Shown: positions 1,002 through 46,005 of the stretch, piece by piece
Position numbering within the stretch: position 1 is the first letter of the stretch
Layout of the letters: every line of letters begins with the position of its first letter
Source: a virus
Taxonomy: Duplodnaviria; Caudoviricetes
DNA length: 64,000 nt
Virus record (IMG/VR): IMGVR_UViG_3300031867_000018
Span: 32,001 to 96,000 of that record
Reading direction: 5' to 3' (one strand)
Position numbers and translations under genes: made by a program
The notes under the pieces: generated by a model
The model's input: the letters and a program-made list of their open reading frames with translations, nothing else
Told to the model about the DNA's origin: nothing
The model's database searches: none

Positions 1002-2104
1002 GTGGAAAAAGCGTACAAATACAGAATATATCCAAACAAACAACAGAAAGAGTTAATCGCTAAAACTTTTGGTTGCGTTAGGTTTGTTTATAACTACTAT
1101 CTCGCACAACGTATCGAGAAGTATAAAGAAAATAAAGAAACAATATCATACAATGAATGTTCTGCTGACTTAACTCAATTAAAGAAAACGGAAGAATACC
1201 AATGGTTGAAAGAAGTAGACGCGACAGCATTACAATCGTCTTTGAAAAATCTTGATGTGGCTTACCAAAAGTTCTTTAAAGAGCATAGTGGCTTTCCTAA
1301 GTTTAAGTCAAAGAAAACGCATAGACATTCTTATAAAGCCAAATGTATAAATGGCAATATTCAGTATTTAGGTAAATGTATTAAACTACCTAAACTCGGA
1401 ATGGTAAAAACGAAAACTAAGTTAGTACCACAAGGCAGAATATTAAATGCTACGGTATCGCAAACACCAAGCGGTAAATATTACGTTTCGATCTGCTGCA
1501 CAGGTGTTGATATTAAACCTTTACCTAAAACAAACAACACGATAGGTATTGACTTAGGCATTAAAGAATTTGCTATTACAAGTGATGGGAAAATGATAAG
1601 TAACCCTAAATTCTTAAAGAAGTCTTTAGATAAACTCGCTAAATTACAAAGACAATTATCTCGAAAACAAGAGGTAGTTCAAACTGGAATAAAGCAAGGA
1701 TAAAGGTAGCAAGGCAGCACGAAAAGATTACTAACCAACGTCAAGACTTTTTACAGAAATTATCAACGGAAATTATTCGCAATAATGATGTTATCTGTGT
1801 TGAAGATTTGAGTATATCGGGAATGCTACAAAATCACAAGCTTGCAAGGTCTATATCCGATGTATCGTGGAATGAGTTCATAAGACAATTAGGTTATAAA
1901 GCTGATTGGTACGGCAGAAAACTTGTTAAGGTAGGAAAATTCTATGCAAGCAGCCAAACTTGTAATCATTGCGGATATATCAATAAGGGAACAAAAGACT
2001 TATCCGTAAGAGAATGGACTTGTCCTGAATGTGGAGAATATCACGACCGAGATGTGAATGCCGCAAAGAATATACTTGATGAAGGATTAAGGCTTTTAGC
2101 CTAA
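1002..2104 (+). pseudogene. tnpB: TnpB RNA-guided endonuclease, interrupted by a 1-bp deletion in the A-run at 1664-1667
   Basis: HTH_OrfB N-terminus (AYKYRIYPN), RuvC-I IGIDLG, RuvC-II VEDL (second frame), Zn finger CNHC/CPEC, RuvC-III DRDVNAA. Adding one A restores ...[18 protein letters not shown]... Confidence 0.85.
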
Positions 2105-2649: not shown

Positions 2650-3073
2650 TTCTTAGTTCAAAAGAATAAAAGAAGAATAATAATGTCTGATTATAAAATT
2701 GAATGTAATTGTGTGAATATATGGGTGTTGATATTGTAGCAGCTACAACGACTTTGCCAATAGAAAAATAGAAAAAATAAAACAACATTCCGATCGTCTT
2801 GAATCTATACAATTACGTTTTAAGGCTGGCAATTTTATTGAACTTTCGACAGTCCAGATTTACTTATTGATTCTATTGTTCTTATAGGAATAGATACAAA
2901 CGGTGAATATATTGATGATATAGATTTTATGATATATAAAAAGCAGAAAAGCTTGTTTTTGCTTCTATATCAACCTGTTCCTGCTATGTTATGAATGCTC
3001 TTGTATATAACAGTAAAGTACAGTAAAACATCTTACCCCGTTTTTTTGCGGGGTTATTTTGTGAGGTGATATA

Positions 3074-3574
3074 ATGGCAGCGAAAAATATGGCAGACCTT
3101 ATCAAAAACATACGAAAACAACTTGATGCTACAATACTATTGGTGGCACAAGATGTTCAAGAATATATACAAAAAGAATTAGATAAATATTACAGTGAAT
3201 ATGATCCGGCAAAATACATACCCCGTACTCATCAACTCCAAAATTGCTGTGTTGTATCACAGCCACAAATTATCAACAATAGTATCAAGGTAGATGTCTA
3301 TTTAGATATTGAGTCACTTCATTATATCACTAAAGGGGCAGACCCATTTAAAACGGTGGTGTCTGCCGATTATGGTTTACACGGTGGTTGGGATATTGAA
3401 GACAAACATATTGTACCTTGGGAGCAAATAAGTCCTCAAAACACTGGAGATGTTGATACAGGAGGCAATGGAACATCTATATGGACGGTGCCAATTACTG
3501 AAATTTTAACGACTAAAAAAATACGACAATGGTTTATGGAAGCTGCGAAAAAGTACGGCTTGCCACTTAGATAA
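3074..3574 (+). CDS. Putative tail-associated structural protein
   Basis: GAGGTG RBS; directly upstream of tape measure; Y-x-P-x-x-Y-x-x-RT motif seen in SPbeta-like structural genes. Confidence 0.5.
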   Translation: MAAKNMADLIKNIRKQLDATILLVAQDVQEYIQKELDKYYSEYDPAKYIPRTHQLQNCCVVSQPQIINNSIKVDVYLDIESLHYITKGADPFKTVVSADYGLHGGWDIEDKHIVPWEQISPQNTGDVDTGGNGTSIWTVPITEILTTKKIRQWFMEAAKKYGLPLR

Positions 3575-3583
3575 TATTACTTT

Positions 3584-3614
3584 AACTCTCTCCTTTCGAG
3601 AGAGTTTTTTATTT
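3584..3614 (+). terminator. Intrinsic terminator/attenuator
   Basis: AACTCTCTC-CTTTC-GAGAGAGTT hairpin followed by T-run. Confidence 0.6.
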
Positions 3615-3637
3615 ACAGAAAGGAGAGATAAGTAAAA

Positions 3638-6600
3638 ATGAATGACGATTTTAAAATTTCGTTAGTCGGGGTGTTAGATGCTGAAACAACAGCTAATAAT
3701 ATAAAGGGTAAATATGGCGAAGTAAAAGGAAAACTTCCAAATATCGAATTAATAGGACAACTTGATATCACTAATACAATAAACACAATAAATGGTCAAT
3801 TATCAGGAATAACACAACATTTACACTCGTTAAATATAAACGCTAATATCGCAGGTATAAATTTCAACTCGAGTCAGGTTCAGCAACAAGCAAGCGTTAT
3901 AGGTAATCAAATCAACAACGGTATATCACAAGGGGTAAACAGTGCCAATAATATACTTAACCAATTTGTAAATACTCTGCATAGTTACCGATGGAATGAT
4001 AACGAAATTCAAAATGCTGTTTCAGAAATAAACAGGCTTGCACAACAAACAGGGATAACAATAGCATCTTTGAGTCAATCAATATCGGAAGTTACGGGTA
4101 AAAAAGGAACAAAAAGAGTATTAGATGTTAGTGTTGAAGGTATAAATCAGCTCGGACAAGCAACTAAACTTGTAAGACAATGGGATTTGGATTCAGGAAA
4201 TTTAGTAAAAACAACCGACAATTTAAAATCGGGAGTTGTAGCAACTGCATCGGAAATGCAAAAATTAAGCGATCAAATTACAAAAGTCGCAAGTTCTTAC
4301 GAAAATAAAGTGGCAAAAATTAGAGCGAATGTTCAAATTGGGCAAAAACCTATTACACCTGCAATGTCAGCCGATTGGAGTCAAATTGAAAGTCAGATAA
4401 GTGCAATCAATAATGCAATTGGACAATTCCGAAACTCGACATCAGCTACTTTTGCGCAAAATGAAGCAGGTATAAAATCTTCGATAACTAACTTAGAGAT
4501 ATTAATAAAGGATTTGCAAAATGCAAGATATCAGGCAAGTGTACTCCGTGCCAATCCTGTTGAGGTATTAAGACAAGAAGCTATAGAAAAAGTTACGCAA
4601 TTCCGCAACGAATTGGAAAGAGCAAAAGGTGATGTAAGTCAGGTTAATAATGATTCTATACGATGGCTTGCTACCCTTAATAATGTTGGAGGGTTTAGAG
4701 TTACTGGAGCAGAAATCGTTGATATTCTCGACAATATCAAAGTCGCAAGAGAACGCTTGAATACATCGAATAAAAAAGAAGGTATAGATAATAGTCTCGA
4801 AAAAGTAAAGATTCAAGCACAAAGCCTATTGTCCGAAATAGAGAAATTAGAAAAGTCAAAAATAATACCTAACGGCTTTAAGATAGATGTTAATGGTGTA
4901 GAAAAAGGTTTAGAAAATATAAAAAATGAGATATCATTAATATCAAAAACTGGAAAAGGAGATTTATCTGTTTTATCTGCACAGTTTAGTCTTTTCAAGA
5001 AAGAGTTGTCTAAGATGGGTGGAAGTACAACAGCTAACACTAATTTTACAAATTCTATTAATCAATGGGTAACCGAAGCAAAAGGATCGATCAAGAATTT
5101 CGATGCTGTTTTCACTCAAACGATAGAACATATAAAAACTGAAGCGGCAAGTGCTGATAAGATCGCTTTAAGCAATCTTAAATCACAGTTTTCTGATTTG
5201 AAAAATGTATATTCATTTTTACAGAAAATGGAAAACAATACAATTGGTGCGACATTTACGCAAAAATCAGAACAACTCAAAAAATTCGGTAGCGATGGAG
5301 CTACTTCGCTTAACACATTAACGAAAGCCTATAATAGCTTGCAAACGGCAATACAGACAAATGACTTTGCAAAAATACAGGCAGCAATCAAAAATTATGA
5401 TACTGAATTGAAGAAAGCCACAAGTACGGTTAAGACTTTTACGGCACAGGGCAAGCAAATAAATAATATAGCCAATCAACGATTCTCCAATCAGATGGAA
5501 GAATGGCAAATAAAGAATACAAGAGCAGCAAAAGTTTTTGGAAACGAAATAAATCGTATACGGGGAGAGTTAAAAAATGCTGATAAAACCAAGCTGACAC
5601 AGTTAAGATTGCAATTTGATGCCGTACAGAAGTCGGCGAGAGAGATGGGTCTGTTGGGTAAGACATTTACGCAATCTTTTGTAGAAATGAGCAGTAAATT
5701 TGCCACTTGGTTCGGCGTTACATCTCTTATGGCACGAACTGTTATGTTGTTACGGTCAGCAGTAGAAGAGGTAAAGAATGTTGATAAGGCGATGACAGAA
5801 CTCTACCGAGTAACCGACTTAACAGCAAATGGTTATGAGAAATTATACACCAAGATAACTAAGTCGGCACAAGATTATGGTATAAAACTGGACAATCTTA
5901 TATCATCGACTGCAAGTTGGGTCAGGTTTGGTTTTGATACTGATACTGCGGAACAATTAGCTGAAATATCAGCAATGTATCAGCACGTTACAGATCTTGA
6001 CGAAAGTACAGCTGTTAAAAATCTGTTGACGGCATACAAAGGTTATCAAACACAATTGCTTGAGTTAACTGGCGGTGACGAAACGGCTGCGGTCGAACGG
6101 ATTGCAGACATATATGATAAGCTCGGTAACGAATTGCCGGTATCCGCTGCCCAAGTCGCAGAAGGTATGAACGAATGGGCAGCTATTGCTGCAGCTTCCA
6201 AAACAACATTTGAAGAAGCCACAGGTTTAATTGTTGGTGGTGGTTCAGTAACGCAAGATTTTACATCAATGGGTACTGCTTTAAAAATTGTAACCATGCG
6301 TTTGCAGGGGATGAAAGGAAAACTTCAAGAGTTGGGTGAAGAGGTCGATGAAAACATTGTCAGCACTTCCAAGATGCAAACCCAAATACTCAACTTAACA
6401 CATGGTAAAGTCAATATTTTCGAGACGGACGGTCAAACTTTCAGAAGCACATATGAAATCCTGAAGGATATATCCGCCATTCAAGAGGAATTGACAGACC
6501 CCGAAAGAGCAGAATTGCTCGAATTGATTGCTGGAAAAAATCGTGGTAATGCAATACAAAGTTTACTTGGCAATTGGCAGGAAGTCGAAAAGACTGTAAT

Positions 6601-33434: not shown

Positions 33435-33871
33435 TCTTCGTACTCAACAAAGTGATTTTTGAATACACAACGACCAACTGAATCAGTTTCTCCATTGGTA
33501 AAAGCAGATGTCAATAGCTTAATCATATTGGCAACTTCTAACTGGCTAAATACTGCAATCCTCACTTCGTCTAATGGAAAATTGTCAAAAAAGGAATCTT
33601 GATATGTGTGATAAGTTGTTCTTTCTTTTTCTCTGTTAAGACTATGCCCGTATTTAGTTCTTACGTCTGGAAAAATATTCATCGCACAAAATCCGCCCAT
33701 TTCAGTAGGGTCTTCAACTCTGATATATAACCCCCCTTCAAATTCAGGTCGATATTCAACCTCTTCTTTTATGTGTTCATCATATTCAAGATAGTCGCTA
33801 TCTTCGGCAATCTTACAGAATACTGTTCCCATTGGTACGTTTCTTAATTCATCTCTTGTTATTATTTTCAT
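33431..33871 (-). CDS. Hypothetical phage protein
   Basis: MKIITRDEL start after GGAGG RBS. Confidence 0.55.
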   Translation of the reverse strand: MKIITRDELRNVPMGTVFCKIAEDSDYLEYDEHIKEEVEYRPEFEGGLYIRVEDPTEMGGFCAMNIFPDVRTKYGHSLNREKERTTYHTYQDSFFDNFPLDEVRIAVFSQLEVANMIKLLTSAFTNGETDSVGRCVFKNHFVEYED

Positions 33872-42699: not shown

Positions 42700-42945
42700 T
42701 AAATAAAAGTTGATCTATCGGACTTATCCGTTTACTAAAAAAATAGCTGGCTGTAGATCTCAACCTCTATCCGATTGAATTTTCTCTCGGAATACTTAGT
42801 ATAATTTTTAGGGTCGTGCAGAGCTTTTCACTCACCGCAAACACCGATAATTCTAATCAGATGATGTTCCGACCGATTACTTCCGTGGAATACTTACGAA
42901 TGTGTAAGCGTAACCTGTGTGGTTTATCTTAACCTAACGACCTAT
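42700..42945 (-). ncRNA. Candidate structured RNA upstream of the recombination/replication operon
   Basis: Nested helices including GGUCGU/ACGACC, GGUUAC/GUAAUC, GCUUAC/GUAAGU, GGUCGGA/UCUGAUU; G-U pairs favour the minus strand. Confidence 0.5.
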
Positions 42946-43083
42946 TATTATATTCTCCATAATTTGTTAGCCAAACTAAAAGAGTGCTGCTAAATTATTT
43001 ATCAAAAAAATTAATCACCGTCCCATACTCCATCGGGTCTTGTTTTAGCCATTGTTAAATTTATTGGGTTGTAACAAACCCAT

Positions 43084-44349
43084 TTATACGAGATTAACCC
43101 GTAACGGGTGTAAACCTACACCCTCTATCCCGTCCGCAAACGCATTCGGGAATACTTTTTTCATTATCTGATAACTGCCGTTTACATCGGCATTTATTTC
43201 TGTTCCATTATTAGATACGAACAAACCTCTATGTACTCTCCTTGACTTATTATAGTTTGCTTCTATTGGCAATTCTTCATCAAGAAAACTTGTACCGCTG
43301 GTGTAACTTTCTTCGGTTTGTTTAAATATAATGCCTGCATTTTCACATTTATAAGCTAACCGAGATACAATACTTAAATATGGTATTTGTGTAAACTTTT
43401 GATTGTTTTGTTTACCTATATCGGAATTTTGTTTCCAGCCTATGTTATATCCGCAAACCAAAGTATCAATATTATGTTCTATGCAGAAGTCAATAACTTG
43501 TTTTGTTGCTTTGTGAATATAGTTGTCTACTTTGCGATTACGCTTTGCCGTAAAATTCTTCATACGATTAGACCAATCTTTGCCGTTGTTTTTCTTTAAT
43601 TCGGAACGCATTTGAGCGATCTGTTTATTATAATATTGGTTTATTGACTTCAAAGGTCTGCCGTTTATTACAAAAGGGTCTGTACCGCAGTTCGTTGTTA
43701 TGGTCATTAAGTTATCTACTCCTAAATCAATAGAAGCTATGCGGCTTGATGTATTGTTTGTTTCGGGTATACCTATTTCGTAAACCACTTCCATTTTATA
43801 TTCTCCGTTTTGCGGGACAAAGCGTATTTGCATGAGCTTTGCGGTGTTTGGGATTTTGGTTTTAAAAATATTATTCATCACTTTCAGCGGTTTCCACGAA
43901 AAATAAATGTAATTATCTTTGACTTTAAATTGATTATTGGCTAAAATCAAAATATAACGTCCGTTTTCCTTGTTGAGGTATTTTGGCATTTTAGGTCTTC
44001 CCGAATATTTTGAGGGATTTTTGCCGTAATCTTTAATGGAAGTGAAAAACGCTTTCCAATTTCTGTCCAAAACACGCAAAGTTTGTTGCCCACATGTTGA
44101 CCCAATGTCTTTATATGGTTCTGAATCTTTTACAATTTTACATAGTTCATAGTATTTTATCCAAACCGCATTTTCTCTTAACCCGTTTTCTTTTTCTTTC
44201 GAGGTTTTTATAAATTCTTGTCGGATAATATAGTTACCATAGTTATATATGTTTTTTGATTTCCAACTAAATTTATCAATTAAAGAAAAATATGGGTTTG
44301 ATGATTTTATGCGATGAGATTCTATTCTATTGGCTTTCAAATTTATCAC
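43084..44349 (-). CDS. tnpB: TnpB-family RuvC nuclease (no Zn finger, rearranged RuvC-II), CRISPR-adjacent
   Basis: SKNIYN..NY.IRQ, ASIDLGVDN, VCGYN.GWKQ, TEESYTS, INADVNG; likely start TTG at 44340. Confidence 0.88.
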   Translation of the reverse strand: MINLKANRIESHRIKSSNPYFSLIDKFSWKSKNIYNYGNYIIRQEFIKTSKEKENGLRENAVWIKYYELCKIVKDSEPYKDIGSTCGQQTLRVLDRNWKAFFTSIKDYGKNPSKYSGRPKMPKYLNKENGRYILILANNQFKVKDNYIYFSWKPLKVMNNIFKTKIPNTAKLMQIRFVPQNGEYKMEVVYEIGIPETNNTSSRIASIDLGVDNLMTITTNCGTDPFVINGRPLKSINQYYNKQIAQMRSELKKNNGKDWSNRMKNFTAKRNRKVDNYIHKATKQVIDFCIEHNIDTLVCGYNIGWKQNSDIGKQNNQKFTQIPYLSIVSRLAYKCENAGIIFKQTEESYTSGTSFLDEELPIEANYNKSRRVHRGLFVSNNGTEINADVNGSYQIMKKVFPNAFADGIEGVGLHPLRVNLV

Positions 44350-44411
44350 CTTTATCTTTATTCACCTTTGCAAGTTTACTGCTTTGTAATTTTATACAGT
44401 TAATTTAATGA

Positions 44412-44711
44412 GTTTTACTGCTATGCAATTTTATACAGTAGTAAACCCCGAAAATAAAATATGCTAAAATAGCCACAGGTTTATTACTATGTAATTTTAC
44501 GCAGTAGTAAAACATATATAAGGAGATCTCTTTAACTTTGTCAGGGTTACTACTATGTAATTTTACACGGCAGTAAAACACCTCGACAAATATGCCACTA
44601 TCATGTTAAGGGTTACTACTATGTAATTTTACACGGCAGTAAAACACCTCGACAAATATGCCACTATCATGTTAAGGGTTACTACTATGTAATTTTACAC
44701 GGCAGTAAAAC
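44412..44711 (-). CRISPR. CRISPR mini-array: five 36-bp repeats, four 30-bp spacers (two identical); type II-A-like
   Basis: Repeats at 44412, 44478, 44544, 44610, 44676 (66-bp period); minus-strand consensus GTTTTACTGCCGTGTAAAATTACATAGTAGTAACCC; ATTTGAG leader end; extra partial repeat at 44373-44400. Confidence 0.9.
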
Positions 44712-45088
44712 CTCAAATTTCTTCGATTTTACTACTGTTCAAATTAAAGTATTTATGAGTTTTACTTCATTGGACGAACCCCACGCCCACTATCTTGTCG
44801 ATTTCTCTTCAAGAATACTTTTATTCATATTTATTTATTCTGCATTTTGTTGTACACTTCGAGCATTCTTCGCCAATTTTCTTTTATTTGTCTTTCGTCA
44901 TCCCAATACGACATTTCATCTTTATAACAATAGTCGTGTTCCGCGTAAAGAGTGGTTGATTAGCCAACTTTCACATTTCTCGTTTTTGACAAATTCGCAC
45001 AGTGGGCAATTTTCACCGTTTCTATCTTGACAATCATCAAAACTATAACACATACGGTTATATTGTTTTACAAATTCTTGAAATTCCA

Positions 45089-45490: not shown

Positions 45491-45603
45491 ATATTGTCTC
45501 CTATACTTTTAAAATGCGGATTCTATCAAGTTCAAATAACTTGTTCTTCATAGTTCAAATTGAAAGTATGAAAGGCGTTAGAAACACCTCTATCTCCTAT
45601 CAG

Positions 45604-46005
45604 TTAAGCATTGGAGATTACCTTTTTATTAACTGTTAATTCCAATAACAAATTATCTTTTGTGACCGAGGTTAGTGTGTTGCAATAACCATCTAACCTC
45701 GGTTCAAGTTGCTGCTTGGTTTTATTTTTTTCTGTATATCGTCCTCGCATTGCGACACAAATAGTATCACAGGAGTGTAACCGCCTCCCATTCCCATTGC
45801 GGCAGTTAGACAAGGACAGATCCCGGTTGTTATCCATTTTTGATGTTCTTGATACCCGTTTCTTATAGCTATGATTTCTTTCATTTAATCACCTTTGGTA
45901 GGTTCCCGTGAAATTCCGATACGATTGTCGGAGAATAACCTACCGTTATTTGCGGAGATTTATTTTTTTTGCCTTTATCGTTTATGCAGACATTCTGATA
46001 TTTAC
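45604..46005 (-). CDS. Three downstream C5-MTase TRD-like mini-ORFs
   Basis: YSPTIVSEFHGNLPKV, CPCLTAAMGMGGGYTP and CNTLTSVTKDNL modules in overlapping frames. Confidence 0.7.

What the first reader, a model, noticed from the sequence alone, without database searches (positions are those of the whole stretch)
43084..44770. Type II-A-like CRISPR mini-array directly upstream of an intact TnpB, with no cas genes
Seen: five 36-bp repeats and 30-bp spacers (44412-44711) plus a partial repeat ending about 30 nt before the tnpB start, all in the same inferred orientation. There is no room for, or sign of, an IS left-end hairpin or tnpA between array and gene. The TnpB keeps RuvC-I D (IDLG), the displaced E (TEESYT) and RuvC-III D (NADVNG). 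Established: Cas12 effectors arose repeatedly from TnpB by association with CRISPR arrays, and phages also carry mini-arrays that use host Cas proteins. Inference: either a nascent type V-like system that captured a Cas9-type array, or a host-Cas9-hijacking mini-array beside an unrelated TnpB insertion.
Basis: partly seen in the sequence, partly recalled or inferred. Interest (0 to 1): 0.85.

Follow-up and report, generated by a model that had tools for sequence, protein, structure and literature searches.

The report
Phage TnpB with captured CRISPR array
A cattle-gut phage carries a small transposon-type DNA cutter (TnpB) permanently joined to a tiny CRISPR array that looks borrowed from a Cas9 system and is preceded by a spare copy of TnpB's own guide-RNA scaffold, which looks like a transposon nuclease turning into a virus-borne CRISPR weapon.

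Summary
Five 36-nt repeats with 30-nt spacers (44412-44711, period 66; the two newest spacers are identical) read on the minus strand into an intact tnpB (43084-44349). The 109-kb phage has no Cas9 or Cas1.

The pairing is not a chance insertion. Of 43 full-length viral relatives, 25 have the same layout: leader, 1-4 spacers, then tnpB, usually behind a truncated or degenerate last repeat. In the tree, all 24 array-linked TnpBs form one clade (97/94).

The array leader is a diverged copy of TnpB's own omegaRNA scaffold. A covariance model built only from tnpB 3' ends finds the leader in every array-linked locus searched. The array therefore begins about where a guide would.

Repeat ends, the leader end and the spacer length are type II-A-like. 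Spacers turn over at the leader end. Three spacers of a sister subclade hit one rival phage contig. I found no host array with this repeat.

Best reading (0.55): a phage TnpB-centred, TranC/type V-U-like system that captured II-A-type acquisition signals. Hijack of host Cas9 is not excluded. This scan has noted the same design before on other genomes.

The parts
44712..44821 (-). Array leader. It holds a diverged copy of the TnpB omegaRNA scaffold (three hairpins), then repeat-derived fragments, and ends in ATTTGAG (44712-44718) directly before the first repeat.
   Evidence: A covariance model built from native tnpB 3' ends hits 44753-44821 (33 bits, E 3.6e-4). RNAalifold on 11 leaders gives three hairpins, with compensatory changes in 8 of 18 pairs. 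The motif was also located.
44412..44711 (-). CRISPR mini-array of five 36-nt repeats and four 30-nt spacers. The three leader-proximal repeats are identical and the two distal ones are degenerate. The two newest spacers are identical.
   Evidence: The repeat folds into a strong hairpin (-10.9 kcal/mol, z -4.3).
44374..44400 (-). Partial repeat (the 3' 27 nt of a repeat) between the array and the tnpB ribosome-binding site.
43084..44349 (-). tnpB, 421 aa (418 aa if it starts at the TTG at 44340), with an intact RuvC D-E-D triad and no zinc-finger cysteines.
43059..43162 (-). Native omegaRNA scaffold. It overlaps the tnpB 3' end and continues through a hairpin (43066-43081) and a short A/T tail (43059-43065).
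   Evidence: Model hit at 43081-43158 (81.5 bits). In 16 native sequences helices P1 and P2 are 100% and 97.5% paired, with compensatory changes. The hairpin and tail are conserved in relatives.
43039..43058 (-). Predicted native guide of the 3' omegaRNA. This is an inference from its position after the scaffold end.
   Evidence: Position relative to the conserved scaffold end. It was not tested.
42947..42974 (-). Sigma-70-like promoter (10 of 12 consensus positions, 16-nt spacer).
42732..42940 (-). Small RNA gene of about 200 nt between tnpB and the AAA_24 replication gene. It has a structured 5' part followed by a third, partial scaffold copy whose second hairpin and T-run form a terminator.
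   Evidence: Model hit at 42732-42798 (27 bits, E 0.005). Terminator at 42749-42765. Motif copy located. BLAST similarity to other leaders covers only the scaffold part.

Best explanation
This is a phage-borne, TnpB-centred CRISPR-like module. It resembles the TranC and type V-U intermediates between transposon TnpB and Cas12.

An ancestor of this phage TnpB clade gained a second, non-coding copy of its omegaRNA scaffold. A short array sits where that copy's guide would be.

The repeats and the leader end of the array are of type II-A kind. New spacers are therefore most likely added at the leader end by the host's type II-A Cas1-Cas2-Csn2 machinery (inferred).

Scaffold copy, array and tnpB lie head to tail on one strand and are probably read as one RNA; no promoter was found directly upstream of this window's leader. 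TnpB binds the scaffold copy and takes spacer-derived guides (repeat 3' part plus spacer), in cis for the first unit or in trans for the others. It then cuts matching DNA of rival phages next to a 5' motif (inferred).

This window's TnpB also keeps its native 3' omegaRNA, so it probably has two guide sources.

Shown here:
- the array
- the conserved linkage
- the scaffold paralogy and its covarying structure
- spacer turnover
- spacer matches to a rival phage

Inferred:
- who inserts the spacers
- that TnpB, and not Cas9, uses them
- how the RNA is processed
For: 1. Linkage. Of 43 full-length viral loci, 25 plus the window share the layout. All 24 array-linked TnpBs in the tree form one clade with 97/94 support and one change on the tree; none of 500 label shuffles clustered as tightly.

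2. Scaffold paralogy. Model R1 was built only from 16 native tnpB 3' ends. It finds the leader, on the tnpB strand, in all 16 array-linked loci searched and in the window (30-44 bits, E 2e-6 to 1e-3). It finds nothing beyond the native copy in four array-less loci.

3. Leader structure. The leaders alone fold into the same three hairpins with compensatory changes. The distance from the conserved motif to the first repeat is about the same as from motif to guide in the native RNA: 101 versus 107 nt in L135 and 109 versus 99 nt in the window (counted by hand on the sequences printed).

4. Loss of the native guide source. In one subclade (L147-149, 167, 169) the native scaffold is degraded (19 bits) and has no 3' tail, and the next gene's RBS follows the stop codon. 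tnpB stays intact in L147-149 (read as truncated in L167 and L169) and the leader copy is kept. That leader also carries a significant anti-repeat (z -4).

5. Live array. Related phages share tnpB-proximal spacers and differ in leader-proximal ones.

6. Targets. Three spacers of that subclade match one other viral contig at 30/30, 27/30 and 24/30 (the first 16 nt perfect). All three lie on the same strand and have TA as the 5' flank.

7. Spacer bias. The first spacer nucleotide is T or C in 28 of 29 TnpB-linked spacers. This bias lies at the repeat-proximal end, where a type V or TnpB motif would sit.

8. Second family. A Cas12f-like gene in phage G020 (P0122; PDB 8HR5, E 1e-87) has the same layout of array, truncated repeat and RBS. 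At least 12 metagenome contigs show it too. One phage carries four different repeat types.

9. No Cas9 or Cas1 in the phage. No long array with this repeat core in the GTDB or metagenome scans.
Against: - No experiment or RNA data show which nuclease loads these spacers.
- The repeats are clearly II-A-like. Subclades A and B share 28 of 36 positions, including the first 15, with a Listeria array that lies beside csn2. A host that can add spacers would also have Cas9.
- In this window I found no significant repeat:scaffold complementarity.
- The repeat hairpin is strong only in the window and one subclade.
- Spacers chosen by II-A machinery would not be selected for a 5' motif.
- The 5' TA rests on three sites in one contig. 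Three random sites share some flank dinucleotide with probability 0.049.
- No target was found for the window's own three spacers.
- No promoter was found directly upstream of the window's leader.
- The first repeat, not a spacer, sits at the exact guide position.
Confidence: 0.55

Rival explanations
1. The mini-array hijacks host Cas9. The array is processed with the host tracrRNA and its spacers are used by host Cas9 against rival phages. TnpB stays linked only as a co-inherited selfish or homing partner that uses its own 3' omegaRNA. The scaffold-like leader is a relic of an old duplication that now serves as leader or promoter region. Dual use by Cas9 and TnpB falls under this heading too.
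For: - Repeat 5' ends, the 36/30 geometry and a leader ending in ATTTGAG match type II-A. The comparator is a Listeria array lying beside csn2.
- Acquisition at the leader end implies a II-A host, and such a host has Cas9.
- In most lineages the terminal repeat keeps only its first 21-24 nt, which is the part a Cas9 crRNA needs.
- The native omegaRNA of this window's TnpB is intact.
- Viral mini-arrays that use host Cas proteins are established (PMC11656645).
Against: - It does not explain why the leader keeps a covarying omegaRNA-like structure with an invariant core motif in non-coding DNA.
- It does not explain why one subclade lost the native omegaRNA tail yet keeps tnpB intact in three of its five loci.
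- One phage carries four repeat types that differ through positions 9-24, so a single host tracrRNA could not pair with all of them.
- The same truncated terminal repeat occurs before a Cas12f-like gene, so it is not specific to Cas9.
- No host array with these repeats was found.
- Spacers show a bias at their 5' end, not their 3' end.
Confidence: 0.2
2. The repeat itself is the guide. TnpB loaded with the leader scaffold copy uses the first 16-20 nt of the first repeat as its guide and is aimed at type II-A CRISPR repeats. The targets would be host arrays (an RNA-guided anti-CRISPR or host-damage function) or arrays of rival phages (homing of the cassette). Spacers would then be by-products of host acquisition.
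For: - The first repeat begins about where the native guide begins (motif-to-junction lengths counted on the sequences).
- The first roughly 20 nt of the repeat are the best conserved part across subclades.
- The module sits in varied genomic contexts.
Against: - The phage's own repeats would be targets unless a 5' motif is lacking, and that motif is unknown.
- All 26 loci keep at least one spacer, with turnover and matches to a rival phage. This argues that the spacers matter.
- No host array with the window's repeat core was found in the GTDB or metagenome scans; the other subclades' repeats were never scanned.
Confidence: 0.1
3. The array and scaffold copy are a decaying relic with no present function and are merely carried along with tnpB.
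For: - The window's two distal repeats are degenerate, one spacer is duplicated, and there is a partial repeat.
- No targets were found for the window's spacers.
Against: - The design is conserved down to about 50% TnpB identity.
- The leader hairpins covary and spacers turn over.
Confidence: 0.05

Closest known systems
TranC (transposon-CRISPR intermediate) systems and the candidate type V-U branches. TranC is from Jin et al. 2025, as summarised in PMC13565253 and bioRxiv 10.64898/2026.03.27.714800. The V-U branches are from Altae-Tran et al. 2023, PMC10691335.
   Same: - A TnpB-sized effector is stably linked to a short CRISPR array with no other cas genes.
- A scaffold RNA derived from the omegaRNA is present.
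- The native omegaRNA is still present in most members, which suggests both guide sources are in use.
- Some TranC systems are phage-borne (CauTranC9).
   Different: - The array lies upstream of the gene, whereas known conserved Cas12-array links are almost all downstream.
- The scaffold next to the array is a separate duplicated copy.
- The repeats are not derived from the omegaRNA 3' end. They are type II-A-like and follow a II-A-type leader end.
- No clear anti-repeat was found in this window.
Cas12r-CRISPR of Thermus Lalka phages (bioRxiv 10.64898/2026.04.20.719267).
   Same: - A phage-encoded miniature type V effector with a short array and no adaptation genes.
- Its spacers are aimed at rival mobile elements.
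- Its locus is highly expressed.
   Different: - It is a different protein family with a different repeat (29 nt).
- It works with crRNA alone.
- No duplicated omegaRNA scaffold and no II-A-like signals are reported.
Viral CRISPR mini-arrays that use host Cas proteins, such as the SPV1/SPV2 portogloboviruses (reviewed in PMC11656645).
   Same: - One to a few spacers in a virus genome that has no cas genes.
- Host-type repeats.
- Spacers against related or rival viruses.
   Different: - Here the array is fused to a TnpB guide-RNA scaffold copy and to tnpB across a whole clade.
- Repeats identical to a host array were not found.
Canonical type II-A CRISPR arrays. The comparator is the Listeria array beside csn2, locus L179.
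   Same: - 36-nt repeat, 30-nt spacers and a 66-nt period.
- The repeat 5' end is shared.
- The leader ends in a II-A-type anchoring motif.
- Acquisition is polarised toward the leader.
   Different: - No cas9, cas1, cas2, csn2 or tracrRNA in the phage.
- The window repeat shares only 21 of 36 positions with the comparator and has a strong internal hairpin that the Listeria repeat lacks.

Membership tests
CRISPR array (generic) | At least three near-identical direct repeats at regular spacing, separated by unique spacers of similar length. | tested here: met
   There are five repeats with a period of 66 nt and three distinct 30-nt spacers. This is the only such cluster in the window.
CRISPR array (generic) | Spacer turnover and matches to foreign DNA. 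| tested here: inconclusive
   Turnover and three protospacers are seen in related loci. No match was found for the window's own spacers.
Type II-A CRISPR-Cas | Repeat and leader end of II-A type, with a 36-nt repeat and 30-nt spacers. | tested here: met
   The comparator is a Listeria array next to a Csn2 gene (Pfam E 9e-60). Subclades A and B share 28 of 36 positions with it and the window shares 21 of 36. The leader ends in ATTTGAG. That this motif is the II-A anchoring sequence rests on my recall of the S. pyogenes literature.
Type II-A CRISPR-Cas | cas9, cas1, cas2 and csn2 adjacent to the array. | tested here: not met
   The Cas9 (TIGR01865) and Cas1 (PF01867) profiles find nothing in the whole 109-kb record.
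Type II-A CRISPR-Cas | A tracrRNA with an anti-repeat followed by nexus and terminator hairpins. | tested here: not met
   Rfam finds nothing. Complementarity between repeat and flanks is not significant in the window. A host-encoded tracrRNA could not be tested.
TnpB / OMEGA (IS200/IS605-IS607 accessory nuclease) | A RuvC-like nuclease with the D-E-D triad and a TNB domain. | tested here: met
   Pfam and NCBIfam guided_TnpB match (178 bits against a cut-off of 100). The triad is conserved.
TnpB / OMEGA (IS200/IS605-IS607 accessory nuclease) | An omegaRNA scaffold that overlaps the gene's 3' end. | tested here: met
   Helices P1 and P2 covary within coding sequence. The window's native hit scores 81.5 bits.
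TnpB / OMEGA (IS200/IS605-IS607 accessory nuclease) | A mobile IS context: tnpA, left and right ends, and multiple copies. | tested here: not met
   There is no tnpA and no space for a left end. The only other tnpB in the genome is a broken one. Array-less relatives with an IS607-type serine recombinase do exist.
Type V CRISPR-Cas / TranC | An evolutionarily conserved link between a TnpB-derived effector and a CRISPR array. | tested here: met
   The array-linked TnpBs form one clade, with one change on the tree.
Type V CRISPR-Cas / TranC | A scaffold or tracr-like RNA derived from the omegaRNA next to the array. | tested here: met
   The leader is hit by the native-scaffold model in every array-linked locus searched and its hairpins covary.
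Type V CRISPR-Cas / TranC | Spacer-derived guides loaded by the effector, and a 5' PAM/TAM next to targets. | tested here: inconclusive
   Three protospacers share a 5' TA, with a chance probability of 0.049. The first spacer nucleotide is a pyrimidine in 28 of 29 spacers. RNA loading cannot be tested with these tools.
Virus mini-array using host Cas | Repeats identical to those of the host's CRISPR array. | tested here: inconclusive
   No multi-copy array with the repeat core turned up in one genome per GTDB species or in metagenome contigs, where the maximum was four repeats, mostly on contigs that carry or border the Cas12f-like gene. The host is unknown.

The most novel reading that the evidence does not exclude
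The spare scaffold copy uses the first CRISPR repeat as its guide. This phage TnpB would then be aimed at type II-A CRISPR repeats themselves. That would make it either an RNA-guided nuclease that attacks the host's Cas9 array or one that homes into the mini-arrays of rival phages. The spacers may serve as a second guide pool.
Probability: 0.1. Interest if true: 0.9.

Novelty: new variant of a known kind. Interest (0 to 1): 0.72.

Why it matters
How Cas12 systems arose from TnpB is an open question. Two routes are proposed: an array grows by duplication of omegaRNA segments, or tnpB lands near an existing array. The second route 'cannot be ruled out' according to PMC10691335.

This clade looks like the capture route caught in several stages:
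- The native omegaRNA is kept.
- A duplicated scaffold is fused to an array of foreign (type II-A) kind.
- In one subclade the native guide source has been lost.

If TnpB uses these spacers, the system would pair one system's spacer-acquisition signals with another system's effector, inside a virus. It would also offer a roughly 420-aa nuclease with a natural, updatable guide array. The hypothesis can be tested directly with a 2-kb cassette.

Tried and rejected
**Target searches for the window's spacers (all negative)**
- INPHARED phages.
- 38 related viral records.
- An exact 24-mer in IMG/VR and a second spacer there.
- An exact 22-mer in metagenome contigs.
- The phage's own genome.

**Target searches for spacers of relatives**
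- L144, L142, L148, L132 and L147 found only their own arrays or chance hits.
- A local BLAST of 73 spacers against everything fetched added nothing beyond the three G039 sites.

**Host array searches**
- The repeat core gave only single chance hits in IMG/VR and in one genome per GTDB species.
- The WIN/Y-type core gave only arrays of up to four repeats in metagenome contigs.

**Prophage search**
- About 800 Clostridia genomes yielded only array-less relatives.
- The one carrier genome checked for Cas9 had none.

**Other negatives and unavailable tools**
- RNAduplex of the repeat against leader, native scaffold and downstream RNA was not significant, except in subclade C (a first run timed out).
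- My by-eye idea that the window's promoter and 5' RNA part (about 42800-42975) is the same cassette as the array promoters of other phages was not borne out. BLAST similarity covers only the scaffold motif.
- Rfam found nothing.
- No supplement is held for PMC10691335, and the TranC paper itself is not in the library.
- No RNA holder is listed for this DNA. Laying contigs showed only assembly breaks in the array.
- The listing of cluster members gave no names.
- I considered and rejected an intact IS with the array as cargo. The left hairpin candidates do not resemble the right end, and only 10-60 nt separate the last repeat from the start codon.
Full report
**What is there**

The window is bases 32001-96000 of a 109,015-bp IMG/VR phage record with 82-bp terminal repeats. 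Its only full holder is a bovine gut metagenome run.

On the minus strand the locus reads in this order:
1. A leader (44821 to 44712).
2. Five 36-nt repeats with four 30-nt spacers (44711 to 44412).
3. An 11-nt stretch and then a partial repeat (44400 to 44374).
4. A ribosome-binding site.
5. tnpB (44349 to 43084).

The three leader-proximal repeats are identical and the two nearest tnpB are degenerate. The two newest spacers are identical.

TnpB is intact. It matches Pfam OrfB_IS605 and the TNB domain, and NCBIfam guided_TnpB. RuvC D208, E347 and D388 are conserved across relatives.

The flanking genes are a phage replication module (AAA_24, SSB, PD-(D/E)XK nuclease, primase-helicase) on one side. 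Small ORFs and a split C5 methyltransferase lie on the other. Cas9 and Cas1 profiles find nothing in the whole record.

**The linkage is conserved and monophyletic**

A scan of IMG/VR for relatives of the TnpB gave 45 loci. Of the 43 full-length ones, 25 have the same layout directly upstream of tnpB:
- A conserved leader that ends in ATTTGAG or a one-letter variant.
- One to four spacers of 29-32 nt.
- 36-nt repeats that start like type II-A repeats.
- A last repeat that in most lineages is cut to about 21-24 nt and runs into the tnpB ribosome-binding site.

In a maximum-likelihood tree all 24 array-linked TnpBs (23 loci and the window) form one clade with 97/94 support. The label needs a single change on the tree. 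None of 500 label shuffles clustered as tightly. Within the clade, identity to the window's protein falls to about 50%. The sister clades are array-less phage TnpBs. Two array-linked loci, L167 and L169, were left out of the tree because their ORFs read as truncated.

Searches of about 800 Clostridia genomes found only array-less relatives. One of these is an IS607-type copy with a serine recombinase.

It came out in favour of linkage.

**The array leader is a copy of TnpB's own guide-RNA scaffold**

The last roughly 100 nt of tnpB and the 25 nt after its stop codon carry the expected omegaRNA scaffold. In 16 native sequences, two helices inside the coding region are 100% and 97.5% paired, with compensatory changes. 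A terminal hairpin and a short A/T-rich tail follow the stop codon in most relatives.

Reading these 3' ends, I noticed that their conserved motif and hairpins recur in the array leaders. I tested this with a covariance model built only from the 16 native 3' ends. The results were as follows:
- In a 213-kb search the model finds the leader, on the tnpB strand, in all 16 array-linked loci searched (30-44 bits, E 2e-6 to 1e-3; the E-values are rough).
- It finds the window's leader at 44753-44821 (E 3.6e-4).
- It finds nothing beyond the native copy in four array-less loci.

RNAalifold on 11 leaders alone predicts the same three hairpins. Eight of 18 pairs show compensatory changes, and G-U pairs fit the tnpB strand. 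The core motif between the first two hairpins is invariant in this non-coding DNA.

The distance from the motif to the first repeat is about the same as from the motif to the guide in the native RNA: 101 versus 107 nt in L135 and 109 versus 99 nt in the window. I counted these by hand on the sequences printed. The array therefore begins about where a guide would.

The window holds a third, partial copy at 42732-42798. It lies at the end of an RNA gene of about 200 nt with its own sigma-70-like promoter and a hairpin-plus-T-run terminator, between tnpB and the replication operon.

**Stages of change within the clade**

In subclade C (L147-149, 167, 169):
- The native scaffold scores only 19 bits.
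- There is no tail after the stop codon, and the next gene's ribosome-binding site follows at once.
- tnpB stays intact in L147-149, with the catalytic triad checked in L147 and L148; in L167 and L169 the ORF reads as truncated.
- The leader copy is kept at 35 bits.
- The leader has a significant stretch complementary to the repeat (z -4, none of 40 shuffles as low).

This subclade seems to depend on the upstream cassette for its guides. The window's TnpB keeps both sources.

**What kind of array it is**

BLAST of a related array hit contigs filed under Listeria phage names that hold a long array with 36-nt repeats and 30-nt spacers. The gene next to that array is Csn2 (Pfam E 9e-60). This gives a tool-derived type II-A comparator.

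Repeats of subclades A and B share 28 of 36 positions with it, including the first 15. The window's repeat shares 21.

That the ATTTGAG leader end is the type II-A leader-anchoring sequence rests on my memory of the S. pyogenes work and is marked as such.

Related phages share tnpB-proximal spacers and differ in leader-proximal ones. Examples are L144/L146/L168/L171, L148/L149/L169 and L137/L150/L165. This is the signature of ongoing polarised acquisition. The most economical reading is that the host's II-A adaptation proteins add the spacers. That reading is an inference.

**Who uses the spacers**

Points in favour of TnpB:
- The scaffold paralogy and the subclade that lost its native omegaRNA, described above.
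- One phage (G020) carries four different repeat types. They agree at the ends but differ through positions 9-24, so a single host tracrRNA could hardly serve them all.
- A second, distantly related effector in that phage is Cas12f-like (462 aa; PDB 8HR5 E 1e-87; 22% identical to this TnpB). It has the same layout of array, truncated repeat and ribosome-binding site in at least 12 metagenome contigs, plus a scaffold and array downstream. The truncated last repeat is therefore not a mark of Cas9 use.
- No long array with the window-type repeat core exists in the metagenome contigs scanned; the maximum is four repeats, mostly next to that Cas12f-like gene.
- The first nucleotide of 29 TnpB-linked spacers is T in 18, C in 10, A in 1 and G in 0. 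The bias sits at the end where a type V or TnpB motif lies.
- Three subclade-C spacers match one other viral contig, all on the same strand and with TA just 5' of the match. The matches are 30/30, 27/30 and 24/30, the last with its first 16 nt perfect. Three random sites share some flank dinucleotide with probability 0.049, so this is only a hint.

Points against TnpB:
- There are no RNA or activity data.
- No significant repeat:scaffold pairing was found in the window.
- The repeat hairpin is strong only in the window and subclade C.
- II-A acquisition would not select a 5' motif.
- A host able to add spacers would also have Cas9.

I put TnpB use at 0.55 and Cas9 hijack (including dual use) at 0.2. 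The reading in which the first repeat itself is the guide gets 0.1, and a functionless relic gets 0.05.

**Comparison with what is known**

The closest described things are:
- The TranC intermediates and the candidate V-U branches (PMC13565253; bioRxiv 10.64898/2026.03.27.714800; PMC10691335).
- The Cas12r system of Thermus phages (bioRxiv 10.64898/2026.04.20.719267).
- Viral mini-arrays that use host Cas proteins (PMC11656645).

This module differs from them in four ways:
- The array lies upstream, whereas PMC10691335 states that conserved Cas12-array links are almost always downstream.
- The scaffold beside the array is a duplicated copy.
- The repeats are of foreign, type II-A kind and are not omegaRNA-derived.
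- The native omegaRNA coexists with the array in most members.

I found no paper that describes this design. The TranC paper and the supplement of PMC10691335 could not be read, so one of their unnamed branches may cover it.

Earlier notes of this scan describe the same design on other genomes. I reached the scaffold paralogy before reading those notes, but they are not independent evidence.

**Verdict**

The 'unrelated insertion' reading is rejected. The 'type V-like system that captured a Cas9-type array' reading is favoured but unproven at the step that matters most, which is which nuclease loads the spacers.

It is a new variant of a known kind, of high interest for the origin of type V systems, and testable with a 2-kb cassette.

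Noticed in passing
window 1491-1834 (+) (G000 33491-33834): A second tnpB-like stretch is broken by TAA and TAG stops. It is a decayed copy elsewhere in the phage.
   Followed up: no
window 42732-42975 (-): This is a discrete RNA gene of about 200 nt. It has a sigma-70-like promoter, a structured 5' part with two copies of the conserved motif that opens the scaffold, a partial omegaRNA-scaffold copy and a terminator. It lies between tnpB and the AAA_24 replication gene. It could be a trans-acting scaffold piece or an attenuator of the replication operon.
   Followed up: partly
window 45545-45624 (-): The native-scaffold model gives a weak fourth hit here (22.8 bits, E 0.044), among small ORFs upstream of the array.
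   Followed up: no
L183 (G020:C1:57500-64500), minus strand 2700-5000: The phage behind L150 has a second locus with three more mini-arrays of three repeat types. It also has a 462-aa Cas12f-like gene (P0122). That gene is preceded by an array whose truncated last repeat runs into its ribosome-binding site, and is followed by a roughly 110-nt scaffold and another array. The same upstream 5' element heads both loci in that phage.
   Followed up: partly
L225 and L216; window 44580-44675: The newest spacer is duplicated in the window. The same is seen in an unrelated human-gut contig of the Cas12f-like family (L225 compared with L216). This is either a recurrent double insertion or slippage at the leader end, or a shared assembly artefact.
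   Followed up: no
L147-L149, L167, L169 (about 4198-4280): In this subclade the native omegaRNA tail is gone and the scaffold is degraded, while tnpB remains intact in L147-L149 and the upstream scaffold and array are kept. In L167 and L169 the tnpB ORF reads as truncated at about 320 aa.
   Followed up: partly
L132 2283-2359 (-): There is an extra scaffold-like copy on the opposite strand, about 300 nt upstream of the array leader (37.6 bits, E 4e-5).
   Followed up: no
L163 and L228: Array-less relatives of this TnpB sit directly after an IS607-type serine recombinase gene. The wider family is therefore IS607-like.
   Followed up: no
window 43116-43158: This 43-nt piece of the tnpB 3' end (the scaffold core) reaches about ten times the local depth in the source run. 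It is also present in sheep, goat and other gut runs, so many related copies share it.
   Followed up: no
window 42844-42956 versus sheep-gut run X2: A sheep-gut contig matches the small-RNA region. Beyond 42956 it continues into different sequence that begins with a repeat-like fragment. This hints at a relative with a different arrangement at this junction.
   Followed up: no
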